Shown here in pieces: positions 7,455 through 56,900 of a DNA stretch of 64,000 nucleotides (positions are counted from its first letter, which is position 1; every line of letters starts with the position of its first letter). Source of the stretch: Amoebophrya sp. A120 (lineage: Eukaryota; Protista; Dinoflagellata). The notes beneath the pieces are model-generated. The model was given only the letters and a program-made list of their open reading frames with translations, was not told the origin of the DNA and did no database searches. Both the position numbers and the translations under genes were made by a program. The DNA lies in the NCBI GenBank assembly GCA_905178155.1, contig CAJINV010000008.1, forward strand, positions 4,241,420 to 4,305,419. Direction: 5' to 3'.

Positions 7455-10084
7455 ATGGTGATTACGTCCGAGCAGATCGGCGCCGCCGAGGGCGCCTTCG
7501 AGAAGATGCCGCTGTCCGAGAAGATCGATGCCATCAAGGCGCTCGCCCGCGCGGAGCGGTCCGCTGCCGCCAACCCCTACGGCTTCCCGCTGTCCAGCAC
7601 TGGTACTACTTTAAAATAGAAGTGTATGTTTTTTCGACTGCTCAAAGGTAGGGATTATGTTGGTTGTTGCAGGTGGAGATGTTGACAAGTGGTATTGGAA
7701 AGCACCAGATTTCATTTCGAAAGCTGTACACTATTCTGCTGAACATCGAAAGGGAAAAAGAATCGCGGAGCATGATGATCATATGATTGTTTTGCAGAGA
7801 CTTTTTAGAGACAGAAACAGTCATCTGGTACTTCCGCATTGACTTTTCACGACGCTTCTTGAAAGTGCAGATGGAAACGTACCTACACTCAGGTATCCCG
7901 ATCGTCCAGGGCATGAACGACGACAGCGTGTTGGGCTCCCACGACATCGTCGGTGTCACCTTCGTACGCGCTGTGAAAGCTGCCCTCTCTTGGTTCTTTC
8001 TCATCGGTTCTTTAAAGTAACTGTCCCTGTCTGTTGTTTGTAACGAGAAGTTGCGAAATAGTAAGTGCGGACCGGCGCAGTAAGTAAGTAATCATGCTTG
8101 TCGTTGTGGACTGGTACAATAATAAGTTCACGTGCTGTATCACAGAGGGGCTTTTGCAACAAGTGCATATCGGTGGATTGCGTGCGCGTCCATGTTGGCG
8201 GGTTCCGTGTTCTTCTTCTCCGAGCGGGCCACCGTCCCAGAAAAGTGGAAGACCTCCGTCACCGTCGCGGGTCTCGTTACCGGCATTGCCTTCTGGTATG
8301 AAAGTTTAGTTTCTGTAAAAACATGACTCATGAACATGATGCAGATGAACAACAAACCTAGCGAACTTCGATGAGGTCGTGACTTGATTTTTTCAAGAAC
8401 ACCCTGGCACAATCAAGAAGATATGTGGACAAAATAATCAGGAACTACTGCTTCATGCGTGAGTCATGGGTCGAGACCCAGACCTCCCCAACGGTGTACC
8501 GGTACACGGACTGGCTGATCACTGTGCCACTGCAGATCATTGAGTTCTACCTGATCCTGAAGGCCGTCCTGCCCAACATCAGCTCCGCACTGTTCTACCG
8601 CCTCATGGCCGAGTCCGTCCTCATGTTGCTGTGCGGCTGGGCCGGCGAGACTGGAATCGTCTCCGTCCTTTGCGGCTTCATCCCGGGTAATAGCTGGTTT
8701 TAGTTTTTCTGACAAGCAGTAGTTGAGGAACTGAAGAAAATTTCTCTCCCTTGTCGTGCGATGCATCGTCGTATTTATTAGTCTCAGAGTAGAATTGCAG
8801 TTGCATTGCAGTCATGTTTAAAGTAGTAGCCGCATTAGTAGCTTTAGATGGGGAGTACGCAATGAAAGCTACACTTGGATGGGTGCGATGAAAAAAATTG
8901 CAACGACGGCACAAAATCCTCGACATTCACAGGTATGCTGTGCTGGTTCGCCCTCATCTACGAGATGTTCACCGGTGAAGCTGGTCAGTTGGCTGCTGTA
9001 TGAGATGAAACGTCGGCGCGCTCGCACATGGCTACACCACCGAGTGAAATTGTTAGCAGGATAGGATTTTAGTTTGCATTGCAATCATCGACTCGGCGGA
9101 TGTTGGGGGCATGTGAAAAAACCGGGCACATTGGCATTTCTACTCCGCTTGTCAGAAACACGCTGCTCCTTGCGCCGACCGCTTATGCTTGAAGCGGAAG
9201 ATGTAATCTGGTAACTTCTGGCTTTAAATAAACGCATGGTGGTGTCCTGCTATCCATGTGCTCGCGACCTCATTTTCCGCTGCATAGCCTGGCTGCGGGA
9301 ACAAGGCGTGCCTCTCTGCCTTCAACACCATGCGCCTGATCATCACCGTTGGCTGGTATCATCATGTTTCTTTTCCTATGGTGCCAATAGACACGTGTAA
9401 TAACTGGAGAAGACCACATGCTATTGTCTTGTCGACGACACAGAGTTCGTCCTGCACAAACAAATTTGGTATCAAGAAGTACTTGTGAGAAACTTTATAA
9501 TTGAATCAAAACAGGGCCATCTACCCGTTGGGCTACTACCTGACCTTGTTGGGCCCCTTATGAAAGATGACTGGACCCCCCCTCTCTCCAAGATTGATTC
9601 CGAGGGAATCATTGAGCACCGCGTTTATTGAGCTCTGGTTGGGCATGCCGCGGTGCAAAAATCTGCAGAACGCTGCCTTTGAACTAAAGCATTCGAACTA
9701 CCGTTTGATCTTTCTGCATGTGAGCTAAAAGAGATTTCGGGGGAGAGGGCTGCTGTCCACTGGCATATTCCACCGCCACCTACCACGAGCAGTCCGTCAT
9801 CAACATCATCTACAACATCGCGGACTTGGTCAACAAGCTCGCCTTCGGTACTCTAAAGATTCAGTTGCTCTCTGTGCAACAGTGACATTTTCATGCCTTA
9901 CACTTTGACTTTTTGCTTGCGAGTAATAGTATTACGTAGCAGCTCGTTTTCAATCATCAGAAACGTGCGTGGTTGAATTGTTATTACTTTCATACCAATG
10001 TGTTGAAAACAAAATTACAATTCCACGAACCAACTTCCAAAAACAGGCTTGTGCATCTGGGGTGCCGCCATCTCTGACAAGTAA
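7455..10084 (+). CDS. Proteorhodopsin paralog 2 (complete, 9 exons, ~65-aa N-terminal extension)
   Basis: Exons 7455-7602, 7893-7963, 8174-8295, 8442-8686, 8933-8997, 9291-9355, 9515-9557, 9772-9847, 10047-10084 give MVITSEQ...DIVGVTFWIACASMLAGSVFFFSERATVPEKWKTSVTVAGLVTGIAFWNYCFMRESWVETQTSPTVYRYTDWLITVPLQIIEF...NIIYNIADLVNKLAFGLCIWGAAISDK*. Confidence 0.95.
7965..8169. mobile_element. Old introner in rhodopsin 2
   Basis: TACG...GCATA; removing 7964-8173 gives TTC|TGG (conserved FW). Confidence 0.75.
8999..9286. mobile_element. Old introner in rhodopsin 2
   Basis: TATG...CATA; flanks TGCTG/GCCTG; removing 8998-9290 restores the frame. Confidence 0.7.
9559..9767. mobile_element. Old introner in rhodopsin 2
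   Basis: TATG...CATA; removing 9558-9771 gives CCC|ACC (GPT, as in paralog 1). Confidence 0.75.
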
Positions 10085-11738
10085 ATGTCGGATCTGATCG
10101 AGATCGACGCCATGACTCGCCTGCTCCTTCAAAAGTAGATAAAACTGTGGGACGAGCTGCGCGGTAGTAGATTTTGTCAACAACACGGCCACCACCACCT
10201 TGGAGAAGGGACACCGCAGCTCTGAAGAGTTCTCACAGTGACGTGAATTTTAGAGCAGTCATGGAACAAGTCGAGGAAGACTTTGTACAGAGACAAAGAA
10301 ATGCAAAACTTTGTCAGGCACAGATGCAAAACTGCAGTTGTAGAAATATCTATCAAGCTCGTGTAAAAATTGTATAGACAACTCGAATAGTAGACACGAC
10401 GGCACAGGTTGCTATTGATACTCAATAATACAGGTTTCATCATCAGACAACAGAAATCAGGTGGAAGAGAGCAATTCGTACGAGAATTGCATTTTTTATC
10501 AATCAGTGTGAATAGATTGCACATCTATTACGGTACGATACAACGACCAAATACAGTTTCGAGGAAAATGTTGTTTCCTTGATTTTTGTACGGACAAAGG
10601 TATGTGGACATACTAGATAGGCGGATGAAGCGCAAAGGCCGAGAGTCGGAGGATACTATCTAAAACACAGAGTCAACAGAAAAGCTTCCACGGTTGTGAT
10701 GTAGTTTCATCACAAGTCGCTGCCAGTAGCAAAGTATCCAGAAATGCGCTACTCGAACACAGTAGAAGGTCGGCTTTTTGTGACACTATCGAACAAGCAG
10801 AGCGCGCCTAGAGGTTCACATCGGCACACTGCTAGAACAATGTGGTCGGAAATCAGAATATCGAAAAGTTTACTGAAAAATGGGAATCAGACTAAATAGG
10901 TTTTAATAGAATCACATCATGTTTTATGATTAAGTAGAAATTGCCACAGAACCATAATAGACATATCTCTCAATCGGACGCATCTATTCAAAACACGACC
11001 GAATTGCATCTGTCTAGGGCAAAAAATATCGTCTGCAATGCATGTCGCGTCGAACTCTATAACCACTTTGCCGTAGGGCGATGCTGTAAAATTATTTTTC
11101 TGCAGTCGCAACCAGCCCGTTCGCGCGAAAGTAGGCGAAGTCACCAGAAGCAACTCCTTGTACGTATTGCAAGCGTTGTGGCAGTCAGACAGAAGGTGTG
11201 GTTTTTGATGTTGTGCAGGAAGCAATTTTCTGTGAACAGCAGAGATGAACATGAATAACTTTTTGAAAATAAGACATTGTCGGAATCCAGCTTTCCCACG
11301 GCAAGCTTCATCGAAGCAGGCCTGAAAGCTGTGAGCAGTAAAATCAGTTTTTACAGAATGAGAATCACACGAAATAAAAACAAAAATTTGCAATGCAGTA
11401 AGCAGGCATTGTATGGCCACCACAGTGCAAGTACCTTACCAGGGCTTTGTTCTAGTACACACCAGGCTCGCAGTCTTTCGAGATGACCACGTATGTTGTC
11501 CACCCGTTGACTGTACAATTGTGAGGATGGAGAGAAGATGGAGATGGGACGAGGAAGTTCTTTCATTGAAATGAAAAATGAAAACAAAGACGCGTGCTAC
11601 TGGCTAAGTCATCCACCTATTATTTTCATGATTATGCGCGCGAGTCTGATGCAATGCAACCCCAAACCGATTGTGACAAGTACAGACAGTCCAATTCAGC
11701 GTTGAAGCAAGTGAGTCGGTTCATACCTGTATGCGAAA

Positions 11739-22133: not shown

Positions 22134-23739
22134 TATAGTTGGAGCTGAGTCCGTTACGGTTCGTTCCGGTTCGTTTCACCGTAACGAACGAATTTTCGTT
22201 CGTTCGTTACGGTTCGTTATGGTTCGTTTCACCGTAACGAACGAATTCCCGTTCGTTCGTTACGGTTCGTTACGGTTCGTTTCACCGTAACGAACGAACT
22301 TCCGTTCGTTCGTTATGGTTCGTTACGGTTCGTTTCACCGTAACGAACGAGCTCGTCACGAGCCGGCACGCCGGAACGAACGAATCTGATTATGTGAAAA
22401 AGACGTCCGTGCGTGAACACTGCAAAAGGTGAAAGCTTCCTCGTCGTCTTTCCACGAGATGGCGAAGAAGATTCGGCGGCTCGGCAGTGTTGTCGTCGTA
22501 TCCGGTGCTGGCTTTGTGCTTTTTTCTTACTTTAGCGAGCAAGTCCGTTGAGAGCTTCGGGCAGGCGGTTGCTCGTCAAAGAGAAATGCGGCGCCATACT
22601 CGTCTCCGTGGTCCGAGCGGGGCCCTGGGCGGCCGTCCGAGTATGGCGAGGTCATACGCGTGCTCCTCGTGTTCTTCTAGGCGGGGCCCTGGGCATCCGA
22701 GTGAGCCGGCCCGGCTCGGTACTAGTGTGGGGGCCAAAAAATCCTGCAAGCGTGTCCTCCACGCGGGCGGCCCCGAGGTGCGTCGTGGTTGCTGCCTGTT
22801 CTTGGCGCACGTTGCGCAGCTGACGGTCATGGTTAGTGGGCGTCGAGCATATAAATCGAGAATACCCTCCTGCGGAATATTTCCCGCGGCGGTATCCTGC
22901 ATTTATAAACTTGCTCGGTACTAGTGTGGGGGCCAAAAAATTCTGCATGCGTGTCCCCCACGCGGGCGGCCCCTGGGTGCGTCACGGTCGCTGCCTTTTC
23001 TTGGCGCACGTTGCGCAGCTCACGGTCATGGTTAGTGGACGTCGAGCATATAAACCGAGAATACCCTCCTGCGGAATATTCCCCGCGGCGGTATCCTGCG
23101 TTTATAAATTTTACTTTGGTCTTTTGTGGATTGGTGTGCGCCGATCACGAGCCGGAACGGGCGACCGAAAGCCCACGCGTTCGCTCGTTTGGTCGTTAAC
23201 GGACCCCGCGAAGCACTTCGTTCGCCCGTTCGTTCGTTACGGGAAAACGAACCATAACGAGCTCACGAAAGTCCGTTCGTTCGTTCGTTCGTTTGGTCGT
23301 TAGCGGACCCGCGAAGCCACTTCGTTCGTTCGTTACGGTGAAACGAACCATAACGAACGAACGAATGAACGCAAATCCCTTCGTTCGTTCGTTCGTTCGT
23401 TTGTTCGGCTGCCAGACCCGGACGCGTTCGCTCGTTCGTTACGGGGAAACGAACCGTAACGAACGAACGAAAATGCATTCGTTCGTTCGTTCGTTCGTTC
23501 GGATGCCAAAGCCAGTGCATTCGTTCGTTCGTTCGTTTGTTCGTTCGGATGCCAAAAACGGACTCGTTCGTTCGTTCGTTCGTTACGGTGAAACGAACCG
23601 TAACGAACCGTAACGAACGAACGGGAATTCGTTCGTTACGGTGAAACGAACCGGAACGAGCCGTAACGAACGAACGAAAGTTCGTTCGTTACGGTGAAAC
23701 GAACCGGAACGAGCCGTAACGGACTCAGCCCCAACTATA
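22134..23739. mobile_element. Non-autonomous foldback-type DNA transposon
   Basis: ~165-bp near-perfect TIRs (TATAGTTGGRGCTGAGTCCGTTACGG...) built of ~52-bp CGTT/AACG-rich subrepeats; possible TA TSD. Confidence 0.9.
22714..23111. repeat. Tandem duplication of a ~199-bp unit inside the foldback element
   Basis: GCTCGGTACTAGTGTGGGGGCC...TTTATAAA starts at 22714 and 22913. Confidence 0.9.
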
Positions 23740-35150: not shown

Positions 35151-38100
35151 TTGACTTTTACCCGCGGCAAACAAGTTGTAGAAGGCAAAAAACAACCTCA
35201 GCCCTCCGCCTCGACGACCACGGTGCCAAAAAACAATCGCAACCTTTCCTCGATACTGCAATTTCTGTTGCGGAACGCGCACGCAAGGATCAGTCAAGCC
35301 GTAGAGGTCTGCGGTATGGAAAAGCTCATGACACCGGGCGATTCAACATCTTCTGCGTCCGTAGCGGACGATGATGACCAAGTGGTGACTACAGCAGCGA
35401 AAGACATTCCCTCAACGTGCATGAAGGATCCAGCAGCTGCCTCTAGTACATCTGTGACTGCGGCCGTTCCGTCCAAACAAGGAACGGCAAAAATAAATGC
35501 CAGAAACCGCCACAGCGGCTCCAAAGAAGGTTCGGAGTTGTCGGAAAATAAGAAAAAGTGTGAACCGGTGGAGCGGCAGTTGTTGCCTGAAAATAGCGAG
35601 ATGGGTCATCTTCAATATCCCCCGCGTGCTATTTTCTTCGTGCCCCGTGCTGGGGAAGATAGTGGACAAGAGAAATCCCTGGATAGCTCAAGAACCGGCG
35701 CGATCGTCAAGAACGCCTCCGATGTTGTTGAAAACATTGCGTCTCAGCGAATTCTTGAGAAGGCGCACGCCAAGCAGAAGCAGGAGCAGCATGCACAGGA
35801 GGACACCAAAAAAGCACCGAAAGGAAAACTACCTTCGTCTTCAAGTGGCGACGACGATGAATCAAAAGCTGATAAACCAGGCAGCCGGACGACCAATGAA
35901 GCGACTACTGGAGATTTCGAGGAGCAAGAAGAAAACCGAAGCCGCCCCTTGGCAACATCGCCGTTCTCTTCGCAGCGGAAAAGCCGGAAATTAGTACATG
36001 GCAGCAACGCTGGTATGACGATCGTTCCGGAGCATATCTTCTACGAACCCTGCAGCAATGCGTACAAACCGATCTTCTGTGCGGAGCAGGCAGGCACAGC
36101 GGAAAGAACAAGCGGTGCTCTTACGGATGATGTCTTGTTCTCGAGCGGAACTAGGTCAATCGAGAAAGCGAACAAAACGACCTTCCCTGGTGCTAGTGCG
36201 TCGTCCTCCATATTGGATGACCCCCATGAGCTGCAAAATCGACACTGCAATAGTAGTGCCACCACGACCTGCTGTCCACGACCTACGGCAACAGATGATG
36301 AGCCGAATACGCAGACTACCTGTAGGACGTCCCACCTCCACGGAGCCCCAGGCGGGCTATTCTACTCGCTGACGTGTTTGGTGCTGGAAGTGGAGGAAGG
36401 AGTAGCAGAGCATCAAGAAGATATTAACCTGACATCTTCCGTGTCGGCGAAGGACAGAAAGATGGCGAAAAGCACGACCAGTCAGCTTATCTACGCGCAG
36501 CATGCGCAGCAGTGGTTCCGCATTAAGAACGGCACGGAAATCACGCCCAGCACCCTGCAAGAAGCATTGCATCCTGACGAATCGGACGACGAGATTTTTG
36601 TGCGGGAACAAGAAAGCCAGCAGGACTATCAGCAGCAAAGCGAGAGGTGGGTGGTGGAAAACGAGGACTCTTCGATGAATTCCAAAACCGTGCCGGAGGT
36701 CTTCGCAGAGCAGCGATCATCCGCAAATGAAGAGGAGCGGGCGCATAACTCTAGAAGTACTGGTACTGCGACACCTGCGAGGACGATCAGCGTTTTGGCG
36801 AGGGGACAAGGGAAGCAGGGACGAGGTCCAGCGGAGGAAGCACACCTCCACGACGCGCGGTTTGATACTGATCGCCTTGGTGAAAAAAATGAAGCACCAA
36901 GAACCTCCGACACCATCGAGACTGCCAGCGCTAGAAGTTCTCGCCAGGCTAGTGGTAACCCGCGCCTCTCGTTCGAGCAACGCGAAGACCGCCGCAAGGC
37001 CGCGTTGCGCGGCACTCTGCGAGCCCCCGCACAGCAGCGGAATGCTGAAGACATGACGAGCCTTCCGGCGCCAGTTGCGGGTGACGTAGTTGGCAACGAC
37101 CGGTACGAGGTCAAACGAACACAGACGGACGAGCAGCAGGAAAATAATCAAGTCGCGCTTCACGGCGAACAAGCGGCAAAACCGAAATCTCTCGCCCGCG
37201 ATCGCGGATTCTCCCCCAACCTGCGAGGCGCTGTCGCGCCCCAGCCCGAGCGGACGGGGCCCGAAGTTGTCGACAAGAACTTATCAAAATGAAAAATCCC
37301 CCCCCCCCATAGCAAAACGAAACTTCTGATGCTGGATTTGTGTACACAAATCAGGTTTGTATTGCAGGAAGGCATTGCGGCCAGAACCCCGACTAGGTAG
37401 GGGCGTATGGGTCTAGTTGTTCAGCATGGCAAACGGCTCCCCTTTAGGCCCAACAGTGTGGCAAATCAATTCCATAATGGGGCGAAAGCCCCTGCCTTTG
37501 TCTTCTTGCAAGAAAAATATGACTTGCGACCTCAAATCAGTTGGGGGTGAGGGACCCCCGACGTTGGCCTTTGCTTCCTTATCCTTTGCTCGATTACTCT
37601 ATTTGGAGGGGCCGCATCCCCTCTTAGTTAGTTTCTCAACCCGATCCAACGGTAGATTATGTGTGTGCCCGGTATTGGTGTCTGATCTTGTTTTTCATGC
37701 GACGCCAATGCCCCCTTTGTGCCCGGATGGCACGGAGGACACGTTGCATGTTCTGGGACCACGCAAATTCTAGCCTGCGAGGAGGGGGGAGCTAGCAAAA
37801 AAAAAGTTGGCCTACGGATATCATGGGGAACTAAGGCTCAAATCAGCGACACAAATTTTCGAAGTCATACCTTTTCAATATGGGGAGGGGGGATGTTTCC
37901 TTTTGATAGAACTCTGCGGTGGTCTACGACGCACCTGGATCCATTAGCTCCTGGCTCCTCGGCCAGAACGGCACGGAAATCACGCCCAGCACCCTACAAG
38001 AAGCACTGGAACTACTGGAATCTCCTGGCGCCAGCACCGAAGTATGTGCACGGGAAGTGGCGGAGGATGGAGGAGTAGATCAGAAGGAAAAAGACCGCTC

Positions 38101-41100: not shown

Positions 41101-41435
41101 CCTTGCCACCCCTTCTTCCTCCCACGTGACGTTGTTTTCGAATGGAAAAATTAGGAGAAGGGAACAAAATCTATTTCACGACATTACATGATACTCACTT
41201 ATGTGCATGTTGTGAAATGAAAGAGACCTTTCTTGTAAACGATGCGAAAACCTTCGCGAATTTTACGCTTCAACCAAAACTTGATTTACCGAATGTAACA
41301 CCCTCGTCCACCACAACAAGCTAGTCGTGTGCTGGATCATCATGAAATGATAAATGCGGCCAATCAATAGTACTTTCGAGACCCACCTGCCCGGATGACG
41401 ACGTTGACCGAGAAGATAGTAGACGAGATTGGTCG

Positions 41436-44400
41436 TTGCGCCGCCACCTTGTAGTGGCAACAACATTCCCACCTCCAGACGAGAGGTCCATTGGCAAGAA
41501 TCCAATGCGGTCGGAAAAAATGCCAGAGCCACCAGGAAGCCCTGTTCCGAAAGCAGGAACGGATCGCGCTGCTTCGAGTTGTTGTAAAGCGAAAAGTCGG
41601 GCTCCGAGCCCGAATGTTGCGGAACAATACCAAAAAGCGGCGAGGCTCTTGATGAAAAAGAAGAGAGACTACAAGTCTACCTCATCATGTTCCTGTCAAG
41701 CGCGCGCGGGAATTTCGTCGTGTCTGCGACGACTGGAAACGGCGAGGTTGAGTATCGGTCTTTCGCGCAGCACCCGTGATCATGTCCTACAAATAGCGAT
41801 GGTCGCAGGAGACACAGCAAGAAAAGCGGTTGCTTTCCATCAACCCGATTGGTGGACAAGATGGAGTTCTCAACGACCGTGTGGTGCTGCGCGACCTCTT
41901 TTACGTAAAAATACCGGGGAAAGCGATGAAAGTGCGGTGGATCTTAAGCAGAACGCCACGACGCACGGGTCGTGCCGCGGCGCTGGGAAAAATAGGAGCA
42001 CCAGACTCTGTGTGTTCATTGGTGAAGTCGTGCTGTGCATCAGTTCGCTCGTGCTCGAAACCATAGTACTTGTACAAGGACCAGGGACAGAACTCCTCTC
42101 GACCACCATGAATCACAGCAGCCGTTGGTGGAAGAAAACGACGGCAGTTGTGGCAAAGTTGCGACGCGGCCGAAAACCGCCGGCCACGGGGCCGTGGAGC
42201 CACTTCGTCGCGGCGTTGCGCAGCCGCCTGGTGTTTCTGCTGGTCTTGCTTCTTTTGCCGACGCCGCTAGTCCTGGTGTTTTTCGACACCACACAATTCG
42301 CCTTCTTCGAGAAGCAGGAACAGCAGATGTTGCAAGACTTCCACATGCGCGAGCAGCACTGGCGGGAGCAGTTTTTGGACCTCCGGGTGGACGAGGAGGA
42401 GGCTAGTACACGAAGAGCACATTTTGTTCAACATCATGAAGATAATTCAAATTCCAGCCCGGATGTTCCGTCCTCCCAGTTGTTCTCTAGAACTTGGCGG
42501 CACAGTCTGGCACAAGGAGCGCGACAGTCTGCAGCTTCCGCTTTATTTGCGAATAAACCTTGTACGACTAGAAGAATCCAAGGCGAGGAGGACGGTCGTT
42601 CTTGTATTTTCGACGTGCCGCTCAAGGAGGAGATCGTGGACCTGATGCAGCAGCGTGATCTCATTTACCCACAGCACATTGAACTACTACCACTTAGGGC
42701 TCTCGCCCAGCCACGGGAGCCGAAGCACCCGCGCAGCTTCGGAGAGGGAATTCTTTATCTAAGTCAGAAACTAGCTGTACTACCTGCTGCAGCAGCAGTA
42801 GAAACTGCTTCATCTACAAGTACAGCCACGAAGATGATGAACAAGAGCCACCTGATCTACGACCCGCGCGGGAGGGGAAGGGCGAGGAGTACAATTGCTG
42901 CATTGATGAAAGGCAGTACTATACCAGCCAATGATCTTCTCCGCCAGGTCCTCGTGAAGATGTCGCAGCTGGACAAAAATTCTTCGTTCCGTACGACAAG
43001 TTCTTCTACTTCCGGAGCTCGACATCCTGCTGCGACATCAAAAAAGTGGTCGTGGTCGTGGTCCTCTCCTTATTTACTCCGGTTGTTCCGTCGCGGCCGG
43101 CCGCGGAAGTTGCTGCTTATTTCCAACGCGCAGGAACTACCGAAAGTTCGACTGCTCGTTTCGCAGGATCCGAAAGTTTGTAGAAAACAAATAGTAAAAC
43201 TATTTGAAAACTTGTATAAAAATCGACCAACAGAGGTCTACCAGCAGAATAAAATATCGATGCCGGACAACAAAGAAAAACTGGAAGAGATTCGCAAAAA
43301 TGCCCACAGGAGTGCTATGCATAGAGTAGCTTCTGGCTTTTATAGAGAATTGACTTTTCAGGAATTCAAAAGCGCTATTACTAGGCTTGAGAAAGAAAAA
43401 TCGCCAGGATATGACAATACTCCGCACGAGATAATAAAAGGCCTGCGAGGCAAAGGGCAAGAACTACTGTACAGACTTTTTTATGTTATTTTAAAGCATG
43501 ACAGCTTTCCCAAAATAGGGAATCTTGCACAACTGGCACCGGTGCAAAAGACAAAAGACCTTCCATTTTGTGAGATGCATTACCGTCCGGTATCGCTGCT
43601 GAGTGTATACAGCAAATTGTTTGAAGCCATAGTCGACACGAGAATGAATCAATGGCTCGAAGGATACGAATGGCTCGGCGGGAAGATCACGCACAAAACG
43701 GAGCCAGTGCTGCCAAGAAACAGCATCGCCTACAGGCAGGGATACTCGAAGGAGGACTCATGCGTAAGACTGTGCGACTTTTTATATGCAAAGATGGAGC
43801 AAAATTTAAATGATCCAAAATACGTGCTGCTGAACGATAACATAGCAGGTTTTGATGTAGTGGAGCATGAGACATTAATAAACACAGCGAAAATGGAAAA
43901 CATGCCTGATGATTTACTGGGGGTGATTATTAGCTGGCTTAGTGGAAGGACGGTGAAGATAAGGGAAGGGTCTAGGGTCTGGGTGCTACGGCCGGGCATG
44001 CCCCAAGGGTCTCCGCTTTCAGGTGGGGTGTTTAACCTGCACCACATCCCGCTAATAAGGTACTTGATGGAGTTAAACCCCAACGGCATAGTAACGCAGT
44101 ATTCCGACGATAATACGCAAACAGGCTTCTTGAGCATGCTGAGCAAAATGAAAAGCTCGCTGATCGATTTTGGTCGCAAGTTTTTTATTTTCTTTGAGAA
44201 GGACAAGAGCGAGACCATCTTCTACAGCCAGAACTACAAAGATGATCCGCAAGAAGCGGGAAGATCTCTAGGCTTCTTGTTCGATGGCACGTGGACGCAC
44301 AACGCTATGTCGGACAAGATCTTGAAAGACATGACAAGGGAAGCTAACGTCTGCCTAGGGTTGAAAACGCTGAGAACTACCAAGAAGGTAGACGTGTTCG

Positions 44401-46253
44401 AAAGTCTTTGCTATTCTGCCCTCTCTAGCACGGGGTCGCCTCAGTATCCCTACTTCTCCTCTGCTGCAAAGTTGAAAATTGAAAATACAGTTTCCAATAA
44501 ATTAAAAGTTTTGCTAGGTCTGCCCAAACGGGCTCCCTCTACCGCTTTATACGAAAGCACGGGGTTAGTTAGGCCTCACATAATGTTTTTGCGCGAGTGC
44601 TTAATGTGTTTTTACAAAGGCCTCGCGAAAAACTTATGGGAAGAAAGCGGCGAGGAACTGACACAAGCTGAGTACGGAATAATAAATAACAACATGGTGA
44701 ACCCGATAGCAGGAGAACCAATAAGAGAAAAGTGGACTTCTATAATGAGAACAATCAGCATGGAAAGACTAAAGGATATTCATGAAGCACTTGTTGCAGC
44801 ACCGCTAAAAATCATCCGCCGCTGCTGGCGGGGAGTCAGAATGTCGGTGCACACTATGGATGATGTAGGACGACAGTGGGGCTACGACAGCCTCACAGCA
44901 ATCAGCAGCGAGGACGAGATCAATCGCACGAGGAAAAGAATATCTTGGAGACAAGACCGAGAAATACGACGAAAGTTGCAGGATGCAGGACATCTGGTAA
45001 TTGCCACCGACGGCAGTGCCTCCGCGGGGGAAGGGCACTATGGCGGCTGTGGAGGAGCGACATGGTGGGCGAGCGATCTCAACTGCGATCATGTGATCAA
45101 TGAAGATTTCGCGGATTGGTACCCAGTGGAGCCGATCTGCACTTCGACTGCCATCGTGGAAACGCCAATAAAAGACGCGCAAGTAGATTCTTTTGATGCT
45201 GAGACATATGCGTTAGTGCACCAAACGAAAAAGACGACGGAGCACCTCAGGATCAACAACCTGTCGCATCTGATAACGAAGGTCAGCTTTTATCTGGACC
45301 CAAACAGTGTGCTCGAAGGATTAGCAAATATGCATGAAAAATCGAACATCATGTTCTTTCACATTATGCACGCCCTGGAAGAATTACGCGACCAGTGCAT
45401 GAAATTCCGATGCAAGTACAAGCATGAAGATCCCATGATGCCTGCAATAGCACCTGAAAACGAGATTGAGTTTGTATTTATTTGGAATGCAGGACATAGC
45501 GGTCTATTTTTCAATGATTTGGTTGACAGCATAGCAGGACAGGCACTTGACAGACACGAAAGAGCACTGGAAAAAGGGGTGACCACGCAAGTATATAAGA
45601 AAGAAATTACAGCATCAATACTACGTAGAATACTTACGCGTCGCATAAGATACTGGATCGGAGTAGCTGAATTCAAGCCAACCAGCGCACCGCAGCTGGT
45701 GGAGCGGGCAAGGGAATTTGGGCCATTCAGACCAAAAGCAGGCACCTTCCCAACAAGATACCTAGAACAGCTCTACTTTTATCTTTTTTCAGGAGTAGTG
45801 CCAAGTGGCATTCTGGGAGCAGGAATGGCAACGCATGAAGATGATGATGATGACCCTGACAAGAAAAAATACTTTCAAAAATGCATGCTATGTGAAGAAG
45901 TAACAGAGGGGCATGCGTCCCATTTGGTTATGGACTGTCGTTGTCCAGCAGCTTTAACAGCTAGACATTTAATTTTAGGGGCTGCGACGATTCCGTTGAC
46001 AATGGAAAACGAAAAAGAAATATTTGCGCAACCGCAAAAAGTATTCCGATTTTTACATGAAACAAACAAGGGGAAAAAGTTCCTGAAAAATTTTGCATGC
46101 GAGCAGATCAAAAAAAACCTGCACTGCATACGGCCCAGGATGAAGGCGGACACGAAAACAAAAAAACAGGAGGAGAACACATATGAAAAACTAGGGTGGC
46201 AGTATAAGAGTATAGAAAAAGAACTTCTGTTAGACCATGAAGAAGATGAGTAA
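41436..46253 (+). CDS. 1605-aa chimeric ORF: host-like N-terminus fused to LINE RT-RNase H-CCHC
   Basis: RT motifs KSPGYD, YRPVSLLS, GFDVVEH, GMPQGSPLS, QYSDD, SLG. RNase H motifs IATDGSA, AETYAL, YLD, WNAGHSG..NDLVD. C-terminal CMLC..HLVMDC. No APE domain seen. Confidence 0.9.
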   Translation: MRRHLVVATTFPPPDERSIGKNPMRSEKMPEPPGSPVPKAGTDRAASSCCKAKSRAPSPNVAEQYQKAARLLMKKKRDYKSTSSCSCQARAGISSCLRRLETARLSIGLSRSTRDHVLQIAMVAGDTARKAVAFHQPDWWTRWSSQRPCGAARPLLRKNTGESDESAVDLKQNATTHGSCRGAGKNRSTRLCVFIGEVVLCISSLVLETIVLVQGPGTELLSTTMNHSSRWWKKTTAVVAKLRRGRKPPATGPWSHFVAALRSRLVFLLVLLLLPTPLVLVFFDTTQFAFFEKQEQQMLQDFHMREQHWREQFLDLRVDEEEASTRRAHFVQHHEDNSNSSPDVPSSQLFSRTWRHSLAQGARQSAASALFANKPCTTRRIQGEEDGRSCIFDVPLKEEIVDLMQQRDLIYPQHIELLPLRALAQPREPKHPRSFGEGILYLSQKLAVLPAAAAVETASSTSTATKMMNKSHLIYDPRGRGRARSTIAALMKGSTIPANDLLRQVLVKMSQLDKNSSFRTTSSSTSGARHPAATSKKWSWSWSSPYLLRLFRRGRPRKLLLISNAQELPKVRLLVSQDPKVCRKQIVKLFENLYKNRPTEVYQQNKISMPDNKEKLEEIRKNAHRSAMHRVASGFYRELTFQEFKSAITRLEKEKSPGYDNTPHEIIKGLRGKGQELLYRLFYVILKHDSFPKIGNLAQLAPVQKTKDLPFCEMHYRPVSLLSVYSKLFEAIVDTRMNQWLEGYEWLGGKITHKTEPVLPRNSIAYRQGYSKEDSCVRLCDFLYAKMEQNLNDPKYVLLNDNIAGFDVVEHETLINTAKMENMPDDLLGVIISWLSGRTVKIREGSRVWVLRPGMPQGSPLSGGVFNLHHIPLIRYLMELNPNGIVTQYSDDNTQTGFLSMLSKMKSSLIDFGRKFFIFFEKDKSETIFYSQNYKDDPQEAGRSLGFLFDGTWTHNAMSDKILKDMTREANVCLGLKTLRTTKKVDVFESLCYSALSSTGSPQYPYFSSAAKLKIENTVSNKLKVLLGLPKRAPSTALYESTGLVRPHIMFLRECLMCFYKGLAKNLWEESGEELTQAEYGIINNNMVNPIAGEPIREKWTSIMRTISMERLKDIHEALVAAPLKIIRRCWRGVRMSVHTMDDVGRQWGYDSLTAISSEDEINRTRKRISWRQDREIRRKLQDAGHLVIATDGSASAGEGHYGGCGGATWWASDLNCDHVINEDFADWYPVEPICTSTAIVETPIKDAQVDSFDAETYALVHQTKKTTEHLRINNLSHLITKVSFYLDPNSVLEGLANMHEKSNIMFFHIMHALEELRDQCMKFRCKYKHEDPMMPAIAPENEIEFVFIWNAGHSGLFFNDLVDSIAGQALDRHERALEKGVTTQVYKKEITASILRRILTRRIRYWIGVAEFKPTSAPQLVERAREFGPFRPKAGTFPTRYLEQLYFYLFSGVVPSGILGAGMATHEDDDDDPDKKKYFQKCMLCEEVTEGHASHLVMDCRCPAALTARHLILGAATIPLTMENEKEIFAQPQKVFRFLHETNKGKKFLKNFACEQIKKNLHCIRPRMKADTKTKKQEENTYEKLGWQYKSIEKELLLDHEEDE

Positions 46254-47936
46254 GTAGTAAGTACATAAATTTTTTGTTTAAGAACTGCAGCTGCGTATTT
46301 CTCACATATGTTGACTCAATATGCTTTATCTCGTTCCATGGTGAAGTACTTTGATTTGCCAGACTACTGTGCAAAGCTAAACAAAATAATTTTTCAACTT
46401 CAAAAAACAAAATAAAATATATCCCTGAGCCAGACTCCGTGCTTCGCTGCAGTCATGCGTTTTAGTGCGCTTGACCGGAATTTTCGAGCAAGGCCGGGCA
46501 GAACGCAAGATCAAATGGATGGACCGAGACATCCAGGCAAAGCTTGCACGGACACAAGCAAAATGCCAAGAAGATACGCAAGTACCGATGGTACGCGAGA
46601 GGAACCGGGCAAGACAGTAGAGCCATGGCACAAGAAGACGGAGAACTGGCGCAGGAAGGCAGCTGCAGAAAAAAAGCAGGGACAAATACCACAAAAGCTA
46701 CACTTCCTCTTAGCATTAGACATGCGAACAGGATGAGTCCATAGTGGAAGATAGCATGAGTGTCTGGATTTTTCCTTATCCTTCTGTATAAGATCTGAGC
46801 TACGGGCTATTGTGTAGGGGTATTTTAGTATTTACAGATTATATGATGAATAGAGCCGGGATGTGGCCGATTTCTTGCCATGACAAAACGCGAGCTATTC
46901 GTAAGGTGCTAGATGATGAATTTTTTTTTATAAAATGAATAAAAGGGACATACACGCATGGAGAACGCAAAAGCATATAAACAAGACATGAAAAATAGAA
47001 GCTCTGCTGCGCAAGCTTCTAAAAAGCAAACTGGAAGTGGGAGCTTTTCCTTGCCATAGGACACAAAAGGACCCCAACGATCGCGAAAGGCTCTTACTTT
47101 TCCAGATCGGAGATCCGGAAGCACCGATATGCTCACAGGAAGTATGACCTTTTGAAACTAGAAAATATAAAGGAAAACAAGATCAGCAGAAGTTTTGTGA
47201 AACGCGAAAAACTAGCTAAGTCAGATCCTGTCTAATTATCGTTCACCAACAACAAGATACTGAGTCTACAAGTAAGATCAGGACAGTTTTTAAGTCCACC
47301 AGTTTTAAGCATGACCTCGCTATGCGAGAAAGAAGAGCCCTTTTTTTTTCGGGTGATCTTCATTTCTATTCCGGCTTAACACGAAAGCACAGATCACAAA
47401 GCCATGCGCCGTATCCTGGATGTGGTTGTGCAGATTGCAGTTCTGTATAACCGAACAGGACGGAATGGTATTTCAGTTTCTCTCTTTCAAAACATCGAAT
47501 GAAGAAGTGTGAACAGTCAAGGCTAAAAAGTGGAAAAGGTAGAGCGACATTGCCGAAGATTTTTCAGTCAGCACCTACGGTCTTAACGATCTGACTGTTG
47601 GCGCTGTATTGCCTTCACCAAACCCCGATTACAGTGGGGGGAGGAGTCGGCAGGCAGTGTCATGGCGGGCGTCCGTTCCACCGCAGACGTGAATGCGAGG
47701 GGCCGCGTAAAAGAGGAATTACGCATTTGAATAAGGACCTGGGAGTTGTTTCTCCAACTGCCAAGAGCAACCCAGCGAGTTCAAATCCAGCGGGCGCATG
47801 CTAAACGAAAGCAAGAGGAAGAACGAAGTACTGAGGACGACAGGAACAGCAGCAGCCAAAGCCATCCTTCTATGTCGTTTTTGGAACTTTTATAGCCCTT
47901 TTGTCAGTAATTTGTATAAAAAAAAAAAAAAAAAAA
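43113..47936 (+). mobile_element. 5'-truncated non-LTR retrotransposon with RNase H (I/ingi/Tad-like group)
   Basis: Composition switches to A-rich at ~43113; RT and RNase H domains; 19-nt poly(A) at 47918-47936; candidate TSD AAGTTG (43107-43112 and 47935-47940). Confidence 0.85.
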
Positions 47937-50900: not shown

Positions 50901-53900
50901 CGACGCCGACACCATCACCATGGAGGAAGCCAGGGACGGCAAACACCCTATGCCCCTCATATTGAGAGGAAAAATCCCCCCTCCCCATATTGAAAAGGTA
51001 TGTTTCCAAAAATTTGTGTTGCGGATTTGAGGTCACAAATCGCATCTGTCTTGCAAGAAGACAAGGGCAGAAGCTTCCGCCCCATTATGGAAGCGATTTG
51101 CCATGCTGTCTGGCCTAAAGGGGGGCCGTTTGCCATGCTGAACGACTAGACCCATACGCCCCTACCTAACCTGGGGATCTGGCCGCAGTGCCTCTGTGCA
51201 ATACAAAGCTGATTTGTGGCCACAAATCAGCATCACAAATTTCCGTTTTGATATGGGGAGGGGGGATTTTTCATTTTGATACCTCAACGCCTTCCACCAA
51301 TTTGACCACGACGACAACGGTATCCTGAGTAAAAACGTACCCACACCAGAGTTGTCATGCAGATTTGCCATGACAGGAACACTTGTGATGCACAACCCCA
51401 TGGCAGGCATTTTCAATCGTGTTTGGGAACTTGTAATGCTGTAAACAGGATCAGCAGATCGATTTCTGATGCAGCTTTCCTTGCTAACTTGCACTACCTT
51501 ACGGACTGAAGCTTGTCATGCGTGACTCCCAAAGCTCCTAGGTTTGTGCTGCAAAGTCCCCATCTTGACTCTGGTGTGGGTACGTTTTTAATCAGGATAA
51601 ACGGCATATTGACCCAGCAGGACTTTGATAACGTACAAAAGGACCTAAACCAGGTATACCCCAATGAAGCCGGCCTGAACACACAAACAGGCTCCGACGG
51701 GCACGCTAAGAAGATGATAAAAAGCTGTGCCCCCAGTTATGATGTATTCCAGAACTTGGAACGAAGAACAAGAAGTCCTCAATTTGTATTTCGAAGGGAA
51801 AAATTGTTTGGTAACACGTTAAGGATGCCAGCAACACAGATTAGTACTAGATTATGGTAGGATTTTGGGAAAATAATGAGATAAATATCGTGAATTTGAT
51901 GTGTTGCAGACAGCCCCGGTACTTACTATGAGGGAGGAAAATTGTGATGTGAGGGATGAGTAGAGTAATGTTTTTCGCGCAATTAGAAGAAGCAACGAGC
52001 TGCAGCAGTCCTCGTGTCCGTCTGAGTCCCTCGCTCATGAAAACAAACAGAAAGCTCTCATGTGAATTAAACCTTGGGCAGCATGAAGGACACTTCGGAC
52101 TTCTGGGGGCGGGGCAGTTTTCATTTTGATACACGCCGTCTTCAACGTAAAAGAACGATATCTGTTGGACGAGCTATTGTACAGAAAAATTCTCCCATAG
52201 TACCAGAAAAAAAGCATGAAAATTCGTTACTGTTTTTCTTTCACAAGAAGCTCTGTGATGCTGATCCGCAAGAAAGGCGATTTTTATCTGTCATCCCAAA
52301 TATCGAGAATGTAACGGGGACTTTTTATCATGACAAGTTCGTTTTCTTTCTGGTATGGGTCGTGTGCTTTTCTGTAGGATACGAGCTGGCTTACAAGCAG
52401 TGGTGATCAGAGGGACTGCTCTGCTTTCGAGTCCTAGCAGGATGCACCTTTCCGAGCTCGGGGTAGGCCCTCCAGCTCGTGGCCCTGGGGTGCCCGTTTT
52501 GGCTTTTGCTTGTCTTGGGTGCTTTTGGCTTGCTCCAGCAGTCTTTCTCGGGTGATGGTAGAACTCGCTCGACTATGTTGCCCAAGCTTTTTTCGCGAGT
52601 GGGCGTTGTATTTCGTGCCCAGAAGGGGCAGCTCTCTACGTCGGCGTGCCGCCATGTGCTCAGGCTCCCTACCTTGCGGGGCTGTTTTTCCAGGTTTGCT
52701 CTTCTCATCTAGCAGGTCGCGCAGACAGAAGGTCGCCGCAGACGTCCATCGGGGATCTGTGTCCTCCAGAGTACAAGTATACGGGTTGGGTTCCCTGTTG
52801 GGCAGGCAGTGGCAGTTCTGAGATAACCAGAGGCGTCAGCCCGTTTTGCACTCGCTCGTAGTCGCAGTTCGCTCCGGGGTTATGAGGATAGTTCGCTACT
52901 TTTAGGTCCTGGGAGATTCCCGCGTTGCTTGGGGGAGTTGTGCGCTTCTGTAGTGTCTGGGGTCGCTTCCAGCCATTGGATGGCTCTGGTACATAAATTT
53001 CCCATTCGTTAATGGTTGCTTGAGGTGGCTTAGTCTCAGAGCTTGGACCACGCGCCCGTGGAGGTGGTTGCTGCGCATGCATATTTACATACAGGCATCG
53101 GGGATCTAGCTGCTCTAGGACTTACTCCCAGATTGGTGCTGGGATTAAACCGGGCGGCTTTTGTTCACGAGGTTGCCGGGGTGGCGCGGCTCGCCGCTAG
53201 TATTGGAAGTGGCTTGCCCGGCAGGCGCCCTCTGCTGCTACTTGGGCACGTGTGGCGCCGATGCTTTTGTCGATGCGGCTCTGACTCGGGGGGTCGGTGA
53301 GTAGGATACTTCTCCCCGAGAGGGAGCTGGGGGATGGCGGGTCTACTGTCACAACTCTTTTTTCTGGCATTTGATGATCTGGGGAACCTCAACGTTGCCG
53401 CCTACTCTCTGTCTACCTTCCCTTTCGCGTGATCGTTTCCGCAAGTTGCCTTACGGATTTGCTGCGCCACCGGTCGCAGAGCCTTTCGTTCCGCAGGGGA
53501 TTTCTGCTTATCTGCAGATGTTCTTGGCCTTGGGGTAGGACGCTTCTGCCAGCATCGCTTCATCGTGCACTAATGTTTCCCCTGATCCGATATATCAGCA
53601 TGAGTCGCCCGGGGTTGGCGGCGCTTCGTTTCGGTATTAGTTGCCCGGCTGTCGGGTGTGGTGATAGAATAGTATGTGCCAGGCTTGCTGGCTGCTTGTG
53701 ATAGCGTGTCTGCGCTTTTGCTGGGGTACTCTTCCTGCGTGGGCCACCTTATCTGTGTCTTCCCTTTATAGGCGAGTGGGGCTGTGCCTGTGCGAGTGGG
53801 CCGTCCCCTGCATGTGCTTGCGAAGGCTAATGCGCTATGCTTGCGCCGAGAGACAAGGGGCAGAGAAAAACTTTCGCTACTTTGGTCGCAACCACTTTCA

Positions 53901-56900
53901 CAACGCTACAAAGACGCAACACCTGTTGCCCGCGCGCGGGCACTGTGTGAAGTTGCGGCCGCCCTAGGTGGCCGCCTACGTTAAGGCGTGGCGCCGCGCC
54001 CCCCCCGGGGGACGCAGAGCGGCGCATGCACTTTGAACAGCCGCCCTGGTCTGCCCTGGAGTCAAAAAAGAAAAACTTGCAGAGGTAGGCGACCTTAACT
54101 TTTAGGCCCTAGCTTTGTTTATTCTTACTCTAAGACACAGGCACTGCGCGCAGGCGGGCGAGCTTCACTGTGCGGGCGGTTCTGGTAGAGGGTCCGGGAG
54201 AGGGTCCCGGAGAGGGTCCGAGAGAGGGTCCCGGAGAGGGTCCAGGAGAGGTTCGGAGAGGGTCGCGGAGAGGGTCCAAGAGGTCCCGAGAGGGTCCGCC
54301 GAGAGGTAGAAAAGAGGTTCCCGGAGAGGGTCGACATAGAGGGTCGCTTAGAGGGTCGCCCTATACTGTGGAACCTCTCTGACCCTCTCGACCCTCTCCC
54401 CCTACCCTCTACTTGACCTCTACTCAACCTCTACGCACCCTCTTCGGGCGTATAGCGCCGCTATACGGTCCCCTATACTGCGCACCCTCTCCCGACCCTC
54501 TCCGTACCCTCTCACTTTACCTCTCCCCGACCCTCTTGTTTTGGTCGACCCTCTACTTTACCTCTCCGACCCTCTGTCTAACCTCTACGAAACCTCTCCC
54601 CAACCTCTATCGGACCCTCTCCGGCCCCAAAGTTTGCCTTATATAAATATATTAATGGGTCGTGTGCTTTTCTGTAGGATACGAGCTGGCTTACAAGCAG
54701 TCCACCGGTGCCTGTGGGGGTCCATGCAGGCTACATGGAGGTGTTGGTGAGGGTTGCTGGGGAATCGTGGGGGCCAATGCGCCCTGGTTCGGGTTCCATT
54801 GTTGTGCCGGGGGGGGCTGCTGTGGTTGAAAAGTGTTCTGCTGCATCAGCGGGCACTGCGTGAAGGCCTGTTGTCCCGGCGCCCCGCACTGCTGCTGCGT
54901 CTGTTGCATTGGCAGTGGTGGTTGCGGGGCCTGCTGCATCTGTGTGTTCTGGAGCCCGAACTGACTAGCGCTTGGCATGCCGCACTGCTGATGTAGCTGC
55001 ACTGTCTGTCCCCACTGCTGTTGTCCAGGTCCAGTTGCTGTCCCGAGCGGAAGCTGACCCTGCGGCGCGAAGCCCATCTGATGCGGGGGTCCTCCCATCG
55101 GGTTTGTCGTGTGCTGCTGCTGTTGTTGATTCTGGGCAAAGGGTGGCAATGCGGGCGGGGGACTATACTGTGGGCCAGTTGTTGGCAGCTGCGCCTGCTG
55201 CTGCTGCGGCTGCAACTGCTGACCTGGTGGTCCCTTCCCTTGTCCTGGCGGCCCGCTTGGCCACTGCTGGAAGTGCGGTTTTCCACCGCCTTTTACGTAC
55301 ATTTCCGATTTCGCCGTAGCTGCTATCGGACCACAATTACGTCTGGATGTGGTCCATAGTCCCGTCCGGGTGTGGGTGATCGAGATCGATCACCTCGCAA
55401 CGCTTTGATGTAAGGACCGGGGACCAACGAGACCATTCTTTGCTTCTTGTTCTTCAAAAAATACTTACACTCTTTCTCTCTTCAAAAAAAGCCCAAAACC
55501 ATGGGCCCCACACGATGTGGGGACGGCAATTTTCAGCCATCATATAATTAAAACATCATTAGATCCAAACAGTGATAAAAAATGCATCAAGCAAAATGAA
55601 AACTTTGGGTCGTGTGCGTCAAGCAAAATGGGTCGTGTGCTTTTCTGTAGGATACGAGCTGGCTTACAAGCAGTCGCATTCGACCGTTTTACTCGATGCT
55701 CAGGAGATGACAGATCCGAAAGTGGCCATCAACAATCTATGGAAACCCACTGAAGCAAATGGTATTATCTTCATGCACTAGAAAATTTATCTTTCCTTCC
55801 TTACCCTGGCGATTCAGCACGACTGGACGACCTTGGTTGTATCTACTAGTGCAGATGATTTTTTACGTTCGCTGTACTTGGTGTCTTTATTTAAGTATTT
55901 ATTAAGCTTATTTTAATTTATTAAAATTAGAAGGAGTTTTTTCGTTTCCTAATTCGGTGATGGCTGCTCGGTTTTCCGGGCGAAAGCGCTGCAGGAGTTC
56001 TGTCGAATGAAAATCGACGGAAGTTCGATTCTATTAAAAGAATTCGTCCTACTGCTTGCGAAACGTTTTCATTGGCACGCTGGGATCAACAAAAAACAAA
56101 AACCACAGGAATTGAGGCGACGACGAACAAGCTGCTCGGCGACGACAACGTGTTACGCATTGCAAATATGTCTGGGTCTGGAAGAATGCGTACTTGTGAT
56201 GCGCATTTCACAACACACAAAAATCTCTCATACCTAGGCAGGAAAAGTTGCCCAGAGTGTGCGATCTGTCATGCGGATTAGGCATTGCGGACGCTCCTTC
56301 TCAAAACCTGTGATGCAGCTAGGGCTCTCATTCCGGACCTTCTGTGTCATGCGAAAACAGCATGACAAAAATCTGCGTTCTCCTTCCTGACCCAGACAGA
56401 ATTGCATTTGATACTTGCTAAAGTACGACGATCTAGCGAAATTCAAAACGGCCAGTGACGGCTATCCTGCAAAAAAAAACGTCCCAGCCTAAAGTCAAGT
56501 AGATGGGAATTTGACTGCACAAACGCCCATGAGATTTTCTGTGTTGTGCATGACAGCTTTGGCGGCGTAGTGTAGTTGTAAAAATCGAGTTTAGTTGCAA
56601 ATGTAATCGCGTCACATCAAATTGATCGCCTCATGATCCTGGTACAGGTTCTTGTTCTTCTAGCTTTGCATACATAAATTTCCACGCACCAGTGGACAAT
56701 CAATGCTACCACGAAACAAATGGATGCGCATGAAAATAAAGAACATTTTAGGCTTAGGCACGCAGATTCGCATGAGAAGCGTGAGGTGGGGACGTGGTTG
56801 CACAGGAGGACGCCGAAATCACTTACCAGGAGTGGGAGGCGGGAGGCGGGATTTTCGCGCCCAAAGGGGGTGCGTATCGTAAGGAAAAATCCCCCCTCCC

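What the first reader, a model, noticed from the sequence alone, without database searches (positions are those of the whole stretch)
52355..55674. Repeat-insert-repeat-insert-repeat array with identical 47-bp repeats
Three perfect copies bracket two unrelated kb-scale inserts, both with minus-strand coding-like fragments cut at the repeat. A partial copy (TGGGTCGTGTGC at ~55606) and a duplicated TCAAGCAAAATG precede copy 3, suggesting template switching. The array lies inside an intron starting with TATC at 52159. Possible explanations: serial insertion at one site with 47-bp duplications, att-like cassette accretion, or a capture array for foreign or TE fragments.
Basis: partly seen in the sequence, partly recalled or inferred. 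Interest (0 to 1): 0.75.

Follow-up and report, generated by a model that had tools for sequence, protein, structure and literature searches.

The report
Jumping-DNA chain inside a spliced intron
In a marine protist parasite gene, two unrelated pieces of mobile DNA sit between three identical copies of a 47-base stretch of the host's own intron-exon border, the 3.5-kb chain is missing from a likely RNA contig of the gene, and a second locus has the same layout with a different repeat, so this is likely a recurring insertion process that copies its landing site each time, not a memory array.

Summary
Observation confirmed: three identical 47-bp copies, a partial copy and the duplicated 12-mer. 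The repeat is host sequence: the last 27 bp of a 207-bp introner (52175-52381, not 52159) plus 20 bp of exon. A likely-RNA contig skips 3,485 nt, so the whole array leaves as one intron and the frame is restored. Both inserts are single-copy at their left ends and have relatives at their right ends. A second locus (L001) holds insert 1's right end (88.7%) in the same repeat-insert-repeat-insert-repeat layout, with a different 46-bp repeat and the same stuttering between element end and target. So the repeat is a long target-site duplication. Best reading (0.5): target-primed, template-jumping synthesis at two nicks 45-47 nt apart, likely by a retroelement enzyme, possibly in one iterative event. 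No enzyme was identified; repair-polymerase capture is the main rival. A fixed-repeat capture array is not supported, and misassembly is unlikely. This scan already noted single inserts with 35-60-bp duplications elsewhere in this genome (e1-10627074).

The parts
52132..52174 (+). host exon upstream of the array (…KERYLLDE…)
   Evidence: joints 51701->52132 and 52168->55654 in an X4 contig, depth 97.5; translation
52175..52381 (+). original 207-bp introner (TAT…ATA ends, CGAGC direct repeats at 52170-52174 and 52382-52386); its left arm starts the enlarged intron 52175-55654
   Evidence: 3,480 + 5 = 3,485 nt skipped
52355..52401 (+). repeat copy 1: last 27 bp of the introner + 20 bp of exon; left copy of the target duplication
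52402..53844 (-). body of insert 1: mostly single-copy, T-rich on + strand, broken minus-strand frames, no protein match; a ~150-bp stretch at its left end is shared with element B of L001
   Evidence: depth 24.4 in X1 and 45.7 in X2 = single-copy level; blank; similarity to L001 reached by 0 of 500 shuffles
53845..54656 (-). right-end module of insert 1: dispersed repeat with a fixed AT-rich right terminus
   Evidence: 88.7% over 813 columns to L001 9825-10626; summed contig depth about 1,027 at 53975-54006 against 42-46 single-copy; an X7 contig stops aligning at 54656 and runs on for 28 other letters
54056..54128 (-). predicted 73-nt GT-AG intron retained in the module
   Evidence: signals conserved in L001; a related X4 contig has 57 letters where the window has 139; splicing inferred
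54170..54630 (.). fold-back array of GAGGGTC / GACCCTC units
   Evidence: z = -9.6, 0 of 100 shuffles fold as well (partly a consequence of the repeat make-up)
54655..54701 (+). repeat copy 2 (middle copy)
54702..55605 (-). insert 2: 5' region with a GTAAGT donor-like site at 55468 and a Pro/Gln/Gly-rich ORF 55302-54703 cut at repeat 2; low-copy family
   Evidence: single-copy contig 54673-55530, a paralogous contig near 55246-55267, raised depth at 55401-55546
55606..55627 (+). junction filler: repeat positions 2-13, then a re-copied piece of insert 2's own sub-end (55587-55598)
   Evidence: present in contigs of X2, X3, X4 and X7
55628..55674 (+). repeat copy 3: supplies the introner end used in splicing and the start of the working exon
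55655..55766 (+). host exon downstream (…LAYKQSHSTVLLDAQEM…)
   Evidence: X4 piece 55654-55766, depth 141; open frame when joined at the RNA joint

Best explanation
The 47-mer is host intron-end plus exon sequence that was likely duplicated as a long target site when pieces of two different mobile-element families were written in, and the enlarged 3.5-kb intron is absent from a likely RNA contig of the host gene. Inferred mechanism: two nicks 45-47 nt apart on opposite strands free 3' ends. A polymerase that jumps between templates, most likely a retroelement reverse transcriptase working by target-primed synthesis, copies an element template with one fixed and one ragged end. It then jumps onto the single-stranded target and copies it to the nick. 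That step would rebuild the very primer it began from, so a second template can be added with the same borders, giving repeat-insert-repeat-insert-repeat. Aborted jumps leave the partial target copies and re-copied element sub-ends. I put one iterative event slightly ahead of two separate insertions (about 55:45). The direction of synthesis and RNA versus DNA template are not settled. The insertion is tolerated because the duplication carries the introner's right end, so the third copy re-creates the splice border.
For: Shown: repeat = introner end + exon. Joint 52168->55654, skip 3,485, 30 letters on the short side, depth 97.5, in 1 of the 4 runs; frame open. L001 has the same three-copy layout with another repeat: outer copies 100% over 46 bp, middle copy 93%. 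Stutter occurs at 3 of the 4 right-hand junctions of the two loci. All 3 partial target copies at those junctions begin at target positions 1-4 and end at 13, 18 and 22; two junctions also re-copy the element's sub-end. Insert 1's module ends at the same place in 3 of 3 copies seen (window, L001, one X7 contig), while left ends are ragged: L001's copy stops at window-equivalent 53845 and insert 2's ORF is cut mid-frame. In L001 the outer repeats are identical and the middle one differs, as expected if the middle copy was newly made by an error-prone enzyme. Established knowledge: long duplications from distant nicks in non-LTR elements (126 bp in R9, >50 bp in Dualen; PMC9977147 passages); re-copied target at R1 junctions (PMC2718515 passages); intron retention, terminal palindromes and a proposed antisense template in Penelope elements (PMC3846280 passages).
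Against: No reverse transcriptase or endonuclease is encoded by, or linked to, either insert: Pfam gave nothing above cut-off for 12 of 12 read-through frames, and searches found no homologue. Neither end has a poly(A) tail. Insert 1 keeps a predicted intron and a TATA-like end, which fits a DNA template as well. No source copy of either left part exists at >=80% in run X2. One of the 4 right junctions (insert 1 / repeat 2) is clean, and one left junction in L001 also stutters. L001's middle copy runs about 70 bp, beyond the 46 bp of copy 1, and could have come from a related donor. Only two loci were examined and no empty allele was seen. X4 is RNA only by the tool's guess, so the joint could in principle come from an insert-free allele, though X4 also holds both insert/repeat junctions at low depth.
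Confidence: 0.5

Rival explanations
1. Host repair capture: a staggered double-strand break with 3' overhangs was repaired by an end-joining or repair polymerase that copied DNA from element ends, with rounds of microhomology switching. No retro-enzyme is needed.
For: Breaks with 3' overhangs mostly give tandem duplications of the overhang, some with templated inserts (PMC5730883 passages). Short microhomologies sit at the switches. A retained intron and TATA-like end fit DNA.
Against: The inserts quoted in those passages are templated in cis; kilobase pieces that start at one fixed element terminus in 3 of 3 copies are not described there. The two targets resemble each other more than random window 45-mers do (4 of 20,000; 12 of 3,000 with free ends; post hoc, two loci), which suggests a targeted nick.
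Confidence: 0.25
2. One-ended or rolling-circle DNA transposition (Helitron/Replitron-like): the fixed right end is the transposase's start site, the left end is ragged by early termination, and repair adds the long duplication.
For: Fixed end with hairpins, inward-facing gene start, retained intron. Replitron-1 and some Chlamydomonas Helitrons give variable duplications and fuzzy ends (PMC10288648 passages).
Against: The fixed end is where the stutter lies, whereas a strand-transfer joint should be clean. No Rep/HUH match. Insert families share no terminus.
Confidence: 0.1
3. The repeat is part of the mobile elements (a short terminal repeat), so the array is a tandem of element units.
For: In L001 the repeat lies within diverged ~90-99-bp repeats at the left end of element B, which resembles insert 1's left end, so there the target may belong to a kin element.
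Against: In the window the 47-mer is introner end plus in-frame exon; the same module has other flanks in L001 and in X7.
Confidence: 0.06
4. A dedicated att-like or CRISPR-like capture array that stores foreign or element fragments.
For: Geometry only: each insert comes with one more repeat copy, at two loci.
Against: The repeat differs between loci and is ordinary gene sequence. Only two kilobase inserts. No integrase or cas-like gene was found among 20 window ORFs scanned. No Rfam match at gathering level.
Confidence: 0.05
5. Misassembly, or insert 1 is a separate circle.
For: No laid record spans the whole array; short-word contigs collapse a 47-bp repeat, and X1/X2 may be the assembly's own data.
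Against: All six repeat borders occur with 0-2 differences in contigs (29-30 letters inside the repeat, just under the tool's 31-letter bridging rule), both inserts sit at single-copy depth, and one X7 contig spans repeat 3 whole with 48 and 86 letters on its sides. The same layout occurs in an independent record.
Confidence: 0.04

Closest known systems
Non-LTR retrotransposons with long target duplications (R9 of rotifers, 126 bp; Dualen-4b of Chlamydomonas; R1 of Drosophila, 14 bp) - PMC9977147 and PMC2718515, passages
   Same: Target copied on both sides of the insert; one fixed and one truncated end; re-copied target and microhomology at a junction.
   Different: Here unrelated families are chained at one site, the genes lie so that their 3' parts are lost, there is no tail, no RT/endonuclease in the inserts, and the site is a single-copy gene border.
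Penelope-like elements (Penelope, Chlamys, Athena) - PMC3846280 and PMC8557442, passages
   Same: Terminal palindromes, retained 5'-UTR intron, partial tandems, capture of unrelated sequence; an antisense template has been proposed.
   Different: Duplications reported in the passages are 8-10 bp; no second terminal repeat, no hammerhead core, no PLE RT or GIY-YIG seen.
Amoebophrya introners / non-canonical introns - PMC7789003 (passages, section 10), PMC12130899 (passages)
   Same: The host element has TAT…ATA inverted ends, a 5-bp direct repeat, and is removed with one repeat copy.
   Different: Its right end is present three times; the RNA contig uses the farthest one although the first pairs better with the left arm (-32 against -22 kcal/mol).
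Tandem duplications with templated inserts at staggered breaks (cNHEJ/TMEJ) - PMC5730883, passages
   Same: Overhang-sized duplication, microhomology switches, repeated rounds.
   Different: Inserts here are 0.5-2.3 kb and begin at element termini.
CRISPR arrays and casposon tandem insertions (mechanism recalled; PMC4779613 seen only as a search listing)
   Same: One more repeat per insert.
   Different: No fixed repeat, no leader, no Cas1-like gene found.

Membership tests
Non-LTR (TPRT) retrotransposon insertion | target-site duplication flanking the insert | tested here: met
   45-47 bp in the window, 46 and ~70 bp in L001; empty site inferred from the open host frame, not seen as an allele
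Non-LTR (TPRT) retrotransposon insertion | one fixed end, other end variably truncated | tested here: met
   same right end in 3 of 3 module copies; left cuts in L001 and insert 2
Non-LTR (TPRT) retrotransposon insertion | poly(A) or simple-repeat tail at the primed end | tested here: not met
   junctions; only an AT-rich end on insert 1
Non-LTR (TPRT) retrotransposon insertion | RT and endonuclease in a full-length family member | tested here: inconclusive
   none in these fragments; no full-length member could be fetched
Penelope-like elements | pseudo-LTR at both ends or partial tandem of one family | tested here: not met
   the module occurs once per insert; the two inserts are unrelated
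Penelope-like elements | retained 5'-UTR intron | tested here: inconclusive
   GT-AG signals conserved in two copies and a shorter related contig; splicing not shown with reads
Penelope-like elements | hammerhead ribozyme in the terminal repeat (absent from most Chlamys/Naiad) | tested here: not met
   Rfam and a core-motif scan found none
Penelope-like elements | PLE-type RT with or without GIY-YIG | not testable with these tools
   no genome held
Amoebophrya-type introner (host intron) | inverted ends with short direct repeat | tested here: met
   12 of 14 terminal bases, CGAGC
Amoebophrya-type introner (host intron) | removed from RNA with one direct repeat | tested here: met
   skip of 3,485 = 3,480 + 5 in an X4 contig; run is RNA by guess only
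CRISPR-like / att cassette array | same repeat at all arrays | tested here: not met
   29 of 48 columns between window and L001 repeats
CRISPR-like / att cassette array | linked integrase or Cas1; processed small RNAs | tested here: inconclusive
   none among 20 ORFs scanned; small RNAs not testable
Helitron / Replitron | HUH Rep transposase and shared terminal motifs | tested here: inconclusive
   no match in the fragments; no terminus shared between insert families

The most novel reading that the evidence does not exclude
Amoebophrya has an undescribed target-primed insertion system that nicks a loosely conserved site (GGGTC…CAA.CAGT, 45-46 nt apart), rebuilds its own primer by copying the overhang, and so strings unrelated element transcripts into repeat-insert chains in one reaction; by landing on introner ends it hides the chains in self-removing introns.
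Probability: 0.2. Interest if true: 0.8.

Novelty: new variant of a known kind. Interest (0 to 1): 0.5.

Why it matters
Two things. (1) It records an insertion reaction in unusual detail: two loci show chained inserts and aborted switches anchored at one edge of the duplicated site. That gives junction-level predictions about how nicks, primers and templates are used in a lineage whose mobile elements are mostly unclassified (PMC7789003 passages). (2) It is a natural experiment on the unexplained non-canonical splicing of these introners: one left end, three identical 27-nt right ends, and the product seen uses the farthest, weaker-pairing one. Deep RNA reads at this locus would tell whether the choice is made by pairing, by distance, recursively, or by decay of the wrong products. 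It is not evidence of an immune-memory array.

Tried and rejected
No whole genome is held and L001's record is not searchable, so genome-wide counts of the 47-mer and full-length relatives could not be made. Raw RNA runs X10 and X11 laid 0 reads: no test. 8 of the 12 listed runs were laid; X5, X6, X9 and X12 were not. No listed holder is on record as RNA. Low-depth contigs over the inserts in X3/X4 were not taken as expression. X8 (estuary metagenome) holds short pieces of insert 1 (151 nt, 0 differences, depth 3): too thin to say more than presence. Pfam: 20 ORFs and 12 read-through frames gave nothing above cut-off for the inserts. The Atlas did not answer. Four exact-pattern scans of viral contigs found nothing. 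Rfam: no match at gathering level; no hammerhead core. Insert 1 body against L001 element B beyond the first 150 bp: not above shuffles (491 of 500 reach the score). Right ends of the insert families are not alike. A shared 10-mer near both right ends was treated as chance. The RT gene at 41-46 kb could not be tied to the array; no duplication around it was found. The fall in summed depth leftwards along the module was not used as proof of truncation, since diverged relatives give the same picture. Literature: searches listed no paper on chained inserts with long duplications in dinoflagellates; the library lacks most subscription papers, and I did not open the supplements of PMC7789003 or PMC12130899, which may annotate this intron or these families. 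The R9 paper is not held and is cited through PMC9977147. PMC12857005 (passages) added nothing.
Full report
1. Observation. The three 47-bp copies (52355-52401, 54655-54701, 55628-55674) are identical and unique in the window. The partial copy at 55606-55617 and the duplicated 12-mer (55587-55598, 55619-55630) are as described. Insert 1 is 2,253 bp and insert 2 is 926 bp; they do not match each other.

2. Setting. The window's genes are cut by TAT…ATA elements with 5-bp direct repeats, the introner pattern published for Amoebophrya (PMC7789003, passages and section 10). Earlier notes on this genome name the same organism (unchecked). The organism is therefore inferred, not looked up.

3. What the repeat is. 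The 47-mer is this introner's last 27 bp plus 20 bp of the next exon. A contig of run X4 (RNA by the tool's guess, depth 97.5) joins 52168 to 55654 and skips 3,485 nt, which is the enlarged element plus one CGAGC. Joined there, the frame stays open; joined at repeat 1 it stops within 8 codons of the joint. No joint to repeat 1 or 2 was among the 5 joints listed, but contigs drop rare forms. The first right arm pairs better with the left arm than the third (-32.2 against -22.1 kcal/mol), yet the third is the one seen in use.

4. Is it real DNA? In X1 and X2 the flanks and the left parts of both inserts sit at single-copy depth (18-25 and 42-46) with no differences. All six repeat borders appear in contigs that reach 29-30 letters into the repeat, just short of the tool's 31-letter bridging rule. 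One X7 contig spans repeat 3 whole. No record spans the array, and X1/X2 may be the assembly's own data. A single-copy circle of insert 1 is the only other graph path, and I rate it unlikely.

5. What the inserts are. Insert 1 has a right-end module (53845-54656) with a fold-back array, an AT-rich terminus and a predicted minus-strand GT-AG intron. Summed contig depth there is about 23 times the single-copy level (a rough guide, not a copy number). Its body is single-copy at >=80% identity and has no recognisable protein. Insert 2 has a minus-strand gene start cut in mid-frame, with one or two relatives near its right end and no homologue among longer proteins. Both look like the heads of inward-reading element genes with the tails missing.

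6. A second locus. One metagenome scan with a conserved 23-mer of the module returned one locus, L001, with the same introner families. Its bases 9825-10626 match 53846-54656 at 88.7%. It has the same layout: repeat (9196-9241), insert A, repeat (9758-9803), the module cut at its left, repeat (10646-10691), then element B. The repeat is a different sequence. The outer copies are identical, the middle one is 93%, and copies 2 and 3 share about 70 bp. At A's right junction two partial target copies and a re-copied piece of A's sub-end precede the full repeat, as at insert 2. The module's right junction also stutters, and so does A's left junction. The two targets share their left 5-mer and 7 of 8 bases at the right edge. 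The alignment score was reached by 4 of 20,000 random window 45-mers, 12 of 19,957 in the reverse comparison and 12 of 3,000 with free ends. This is post hoc and rests on two loci. L001 was found through the module, not through repeats, so the recurrence of the layout was not selected for.

7. Mechanism. Shown: duplication of host sequence, recurrence, fixed right and ragged left ends, partial target copies anchored at the target's left edge, removal from a likely RNA contig. Inferred: two nicks 45-47 nt apart, priming from a freed 3' end, and template jumps between element and single-stranded target. A complete copy of the overhang would re-create the primer, which explains identical borders without a second cut. 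L001's pattern (outer copies equal, middle copy different) fits this better than two insertions far apart in time. The target similarity instead favours a sequence-preferring nickase that could act twice; the two ideas are compatible. The junctions read equally well leftwards or rightwards, so the primed end is not known. If the fixed end is the primed one, the template was antisense to the inserts' genes, which would explain the kept intron, as proposed for Penelope elements (PMC3846280 passages). I give a retro-enzyme 0.5, repair capture 0.25, rolling-circle or one-ended transposition 0.1, and the rest 0.15.

8. Comparison. It works like non-LTR insertion with distant nicks (R9, Dualen: PMC9977147 passages; R1 junction rearrangements: PMC2718515 passages) and shares traits with Penelope-like elements. 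Membership in either is not shown: no tail, no pseudo-LTR pair, no hammerhead, no enzyme. Staggered-break repair gives similar duplications (PMC5730883 passages), and Replitrons give variable ones (PMC10288648 passages). It fails the fixed-repeat test for a CRISPR- or att-like array. Within this scan, e1-10627074 noted single inserts with 35-60-bp duplications, and e1-10589590 and e1-10627526 noted LINEs landing in introners; I saw only their short summaries. Four literature searches listed nothing on chained long-duplication inserts in dinoflagellates.

9. Verdict. A real feature and a new variant of target-duplicating insertion, made harmless by the introner it landed on. It is not a capture array on present evidence. 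Interest 0.5.

Noticed in passing
window 36526-36570 and 37965-38009: A 31-bp exact, about 45-bp near-identical direct repeat 1,439 bp apart in coding-like sequence; possibly an older long duplication or a partial gene duplication.
   Followed up: partly
window 41346-46253 (+): 1,635-codon open frame whose later part has an RT domain (Pfam RVT_1, E 1.6e-9) followed by RNase H-like and Cys/His motifs seen by eye; no endonuclease match, no flanking duplication found; an A-run lies near 47918.
   Followed up: partly
window 22152-23721: Element with inverted arrays of a 53/106-bp satellite at both ends and a 199-bp tandem pair inside.
   Followed up: no
window 55580-55760: An X7 contig (depth 19.7) includes insert 2's right end, repeat 3 and the exon, has downstream introns removed, and ends at 55580, while X7 has no cover on the upstream exon 52132-52174: a weak hint of a transcript starting in insert 2 or of a splicing intermediate.
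   Followed up: no
L001 9242-9711: A third insert family with three 98-bp hairpin units containing GACCC motifs; no match to the window's inserts.
   Followed up: partly
L001 9150-9200 and 10692-10910: The L001 target sits among diverged ~90-99-bp repeats at the left end of element B, so these elements may insert into their own kin.
   Followed up: partly
L001 3860-7800: A gene broken by many introners that reads by eye like a UDP-sugar dehydratase (name recalled, not searched).
   Followed up: no
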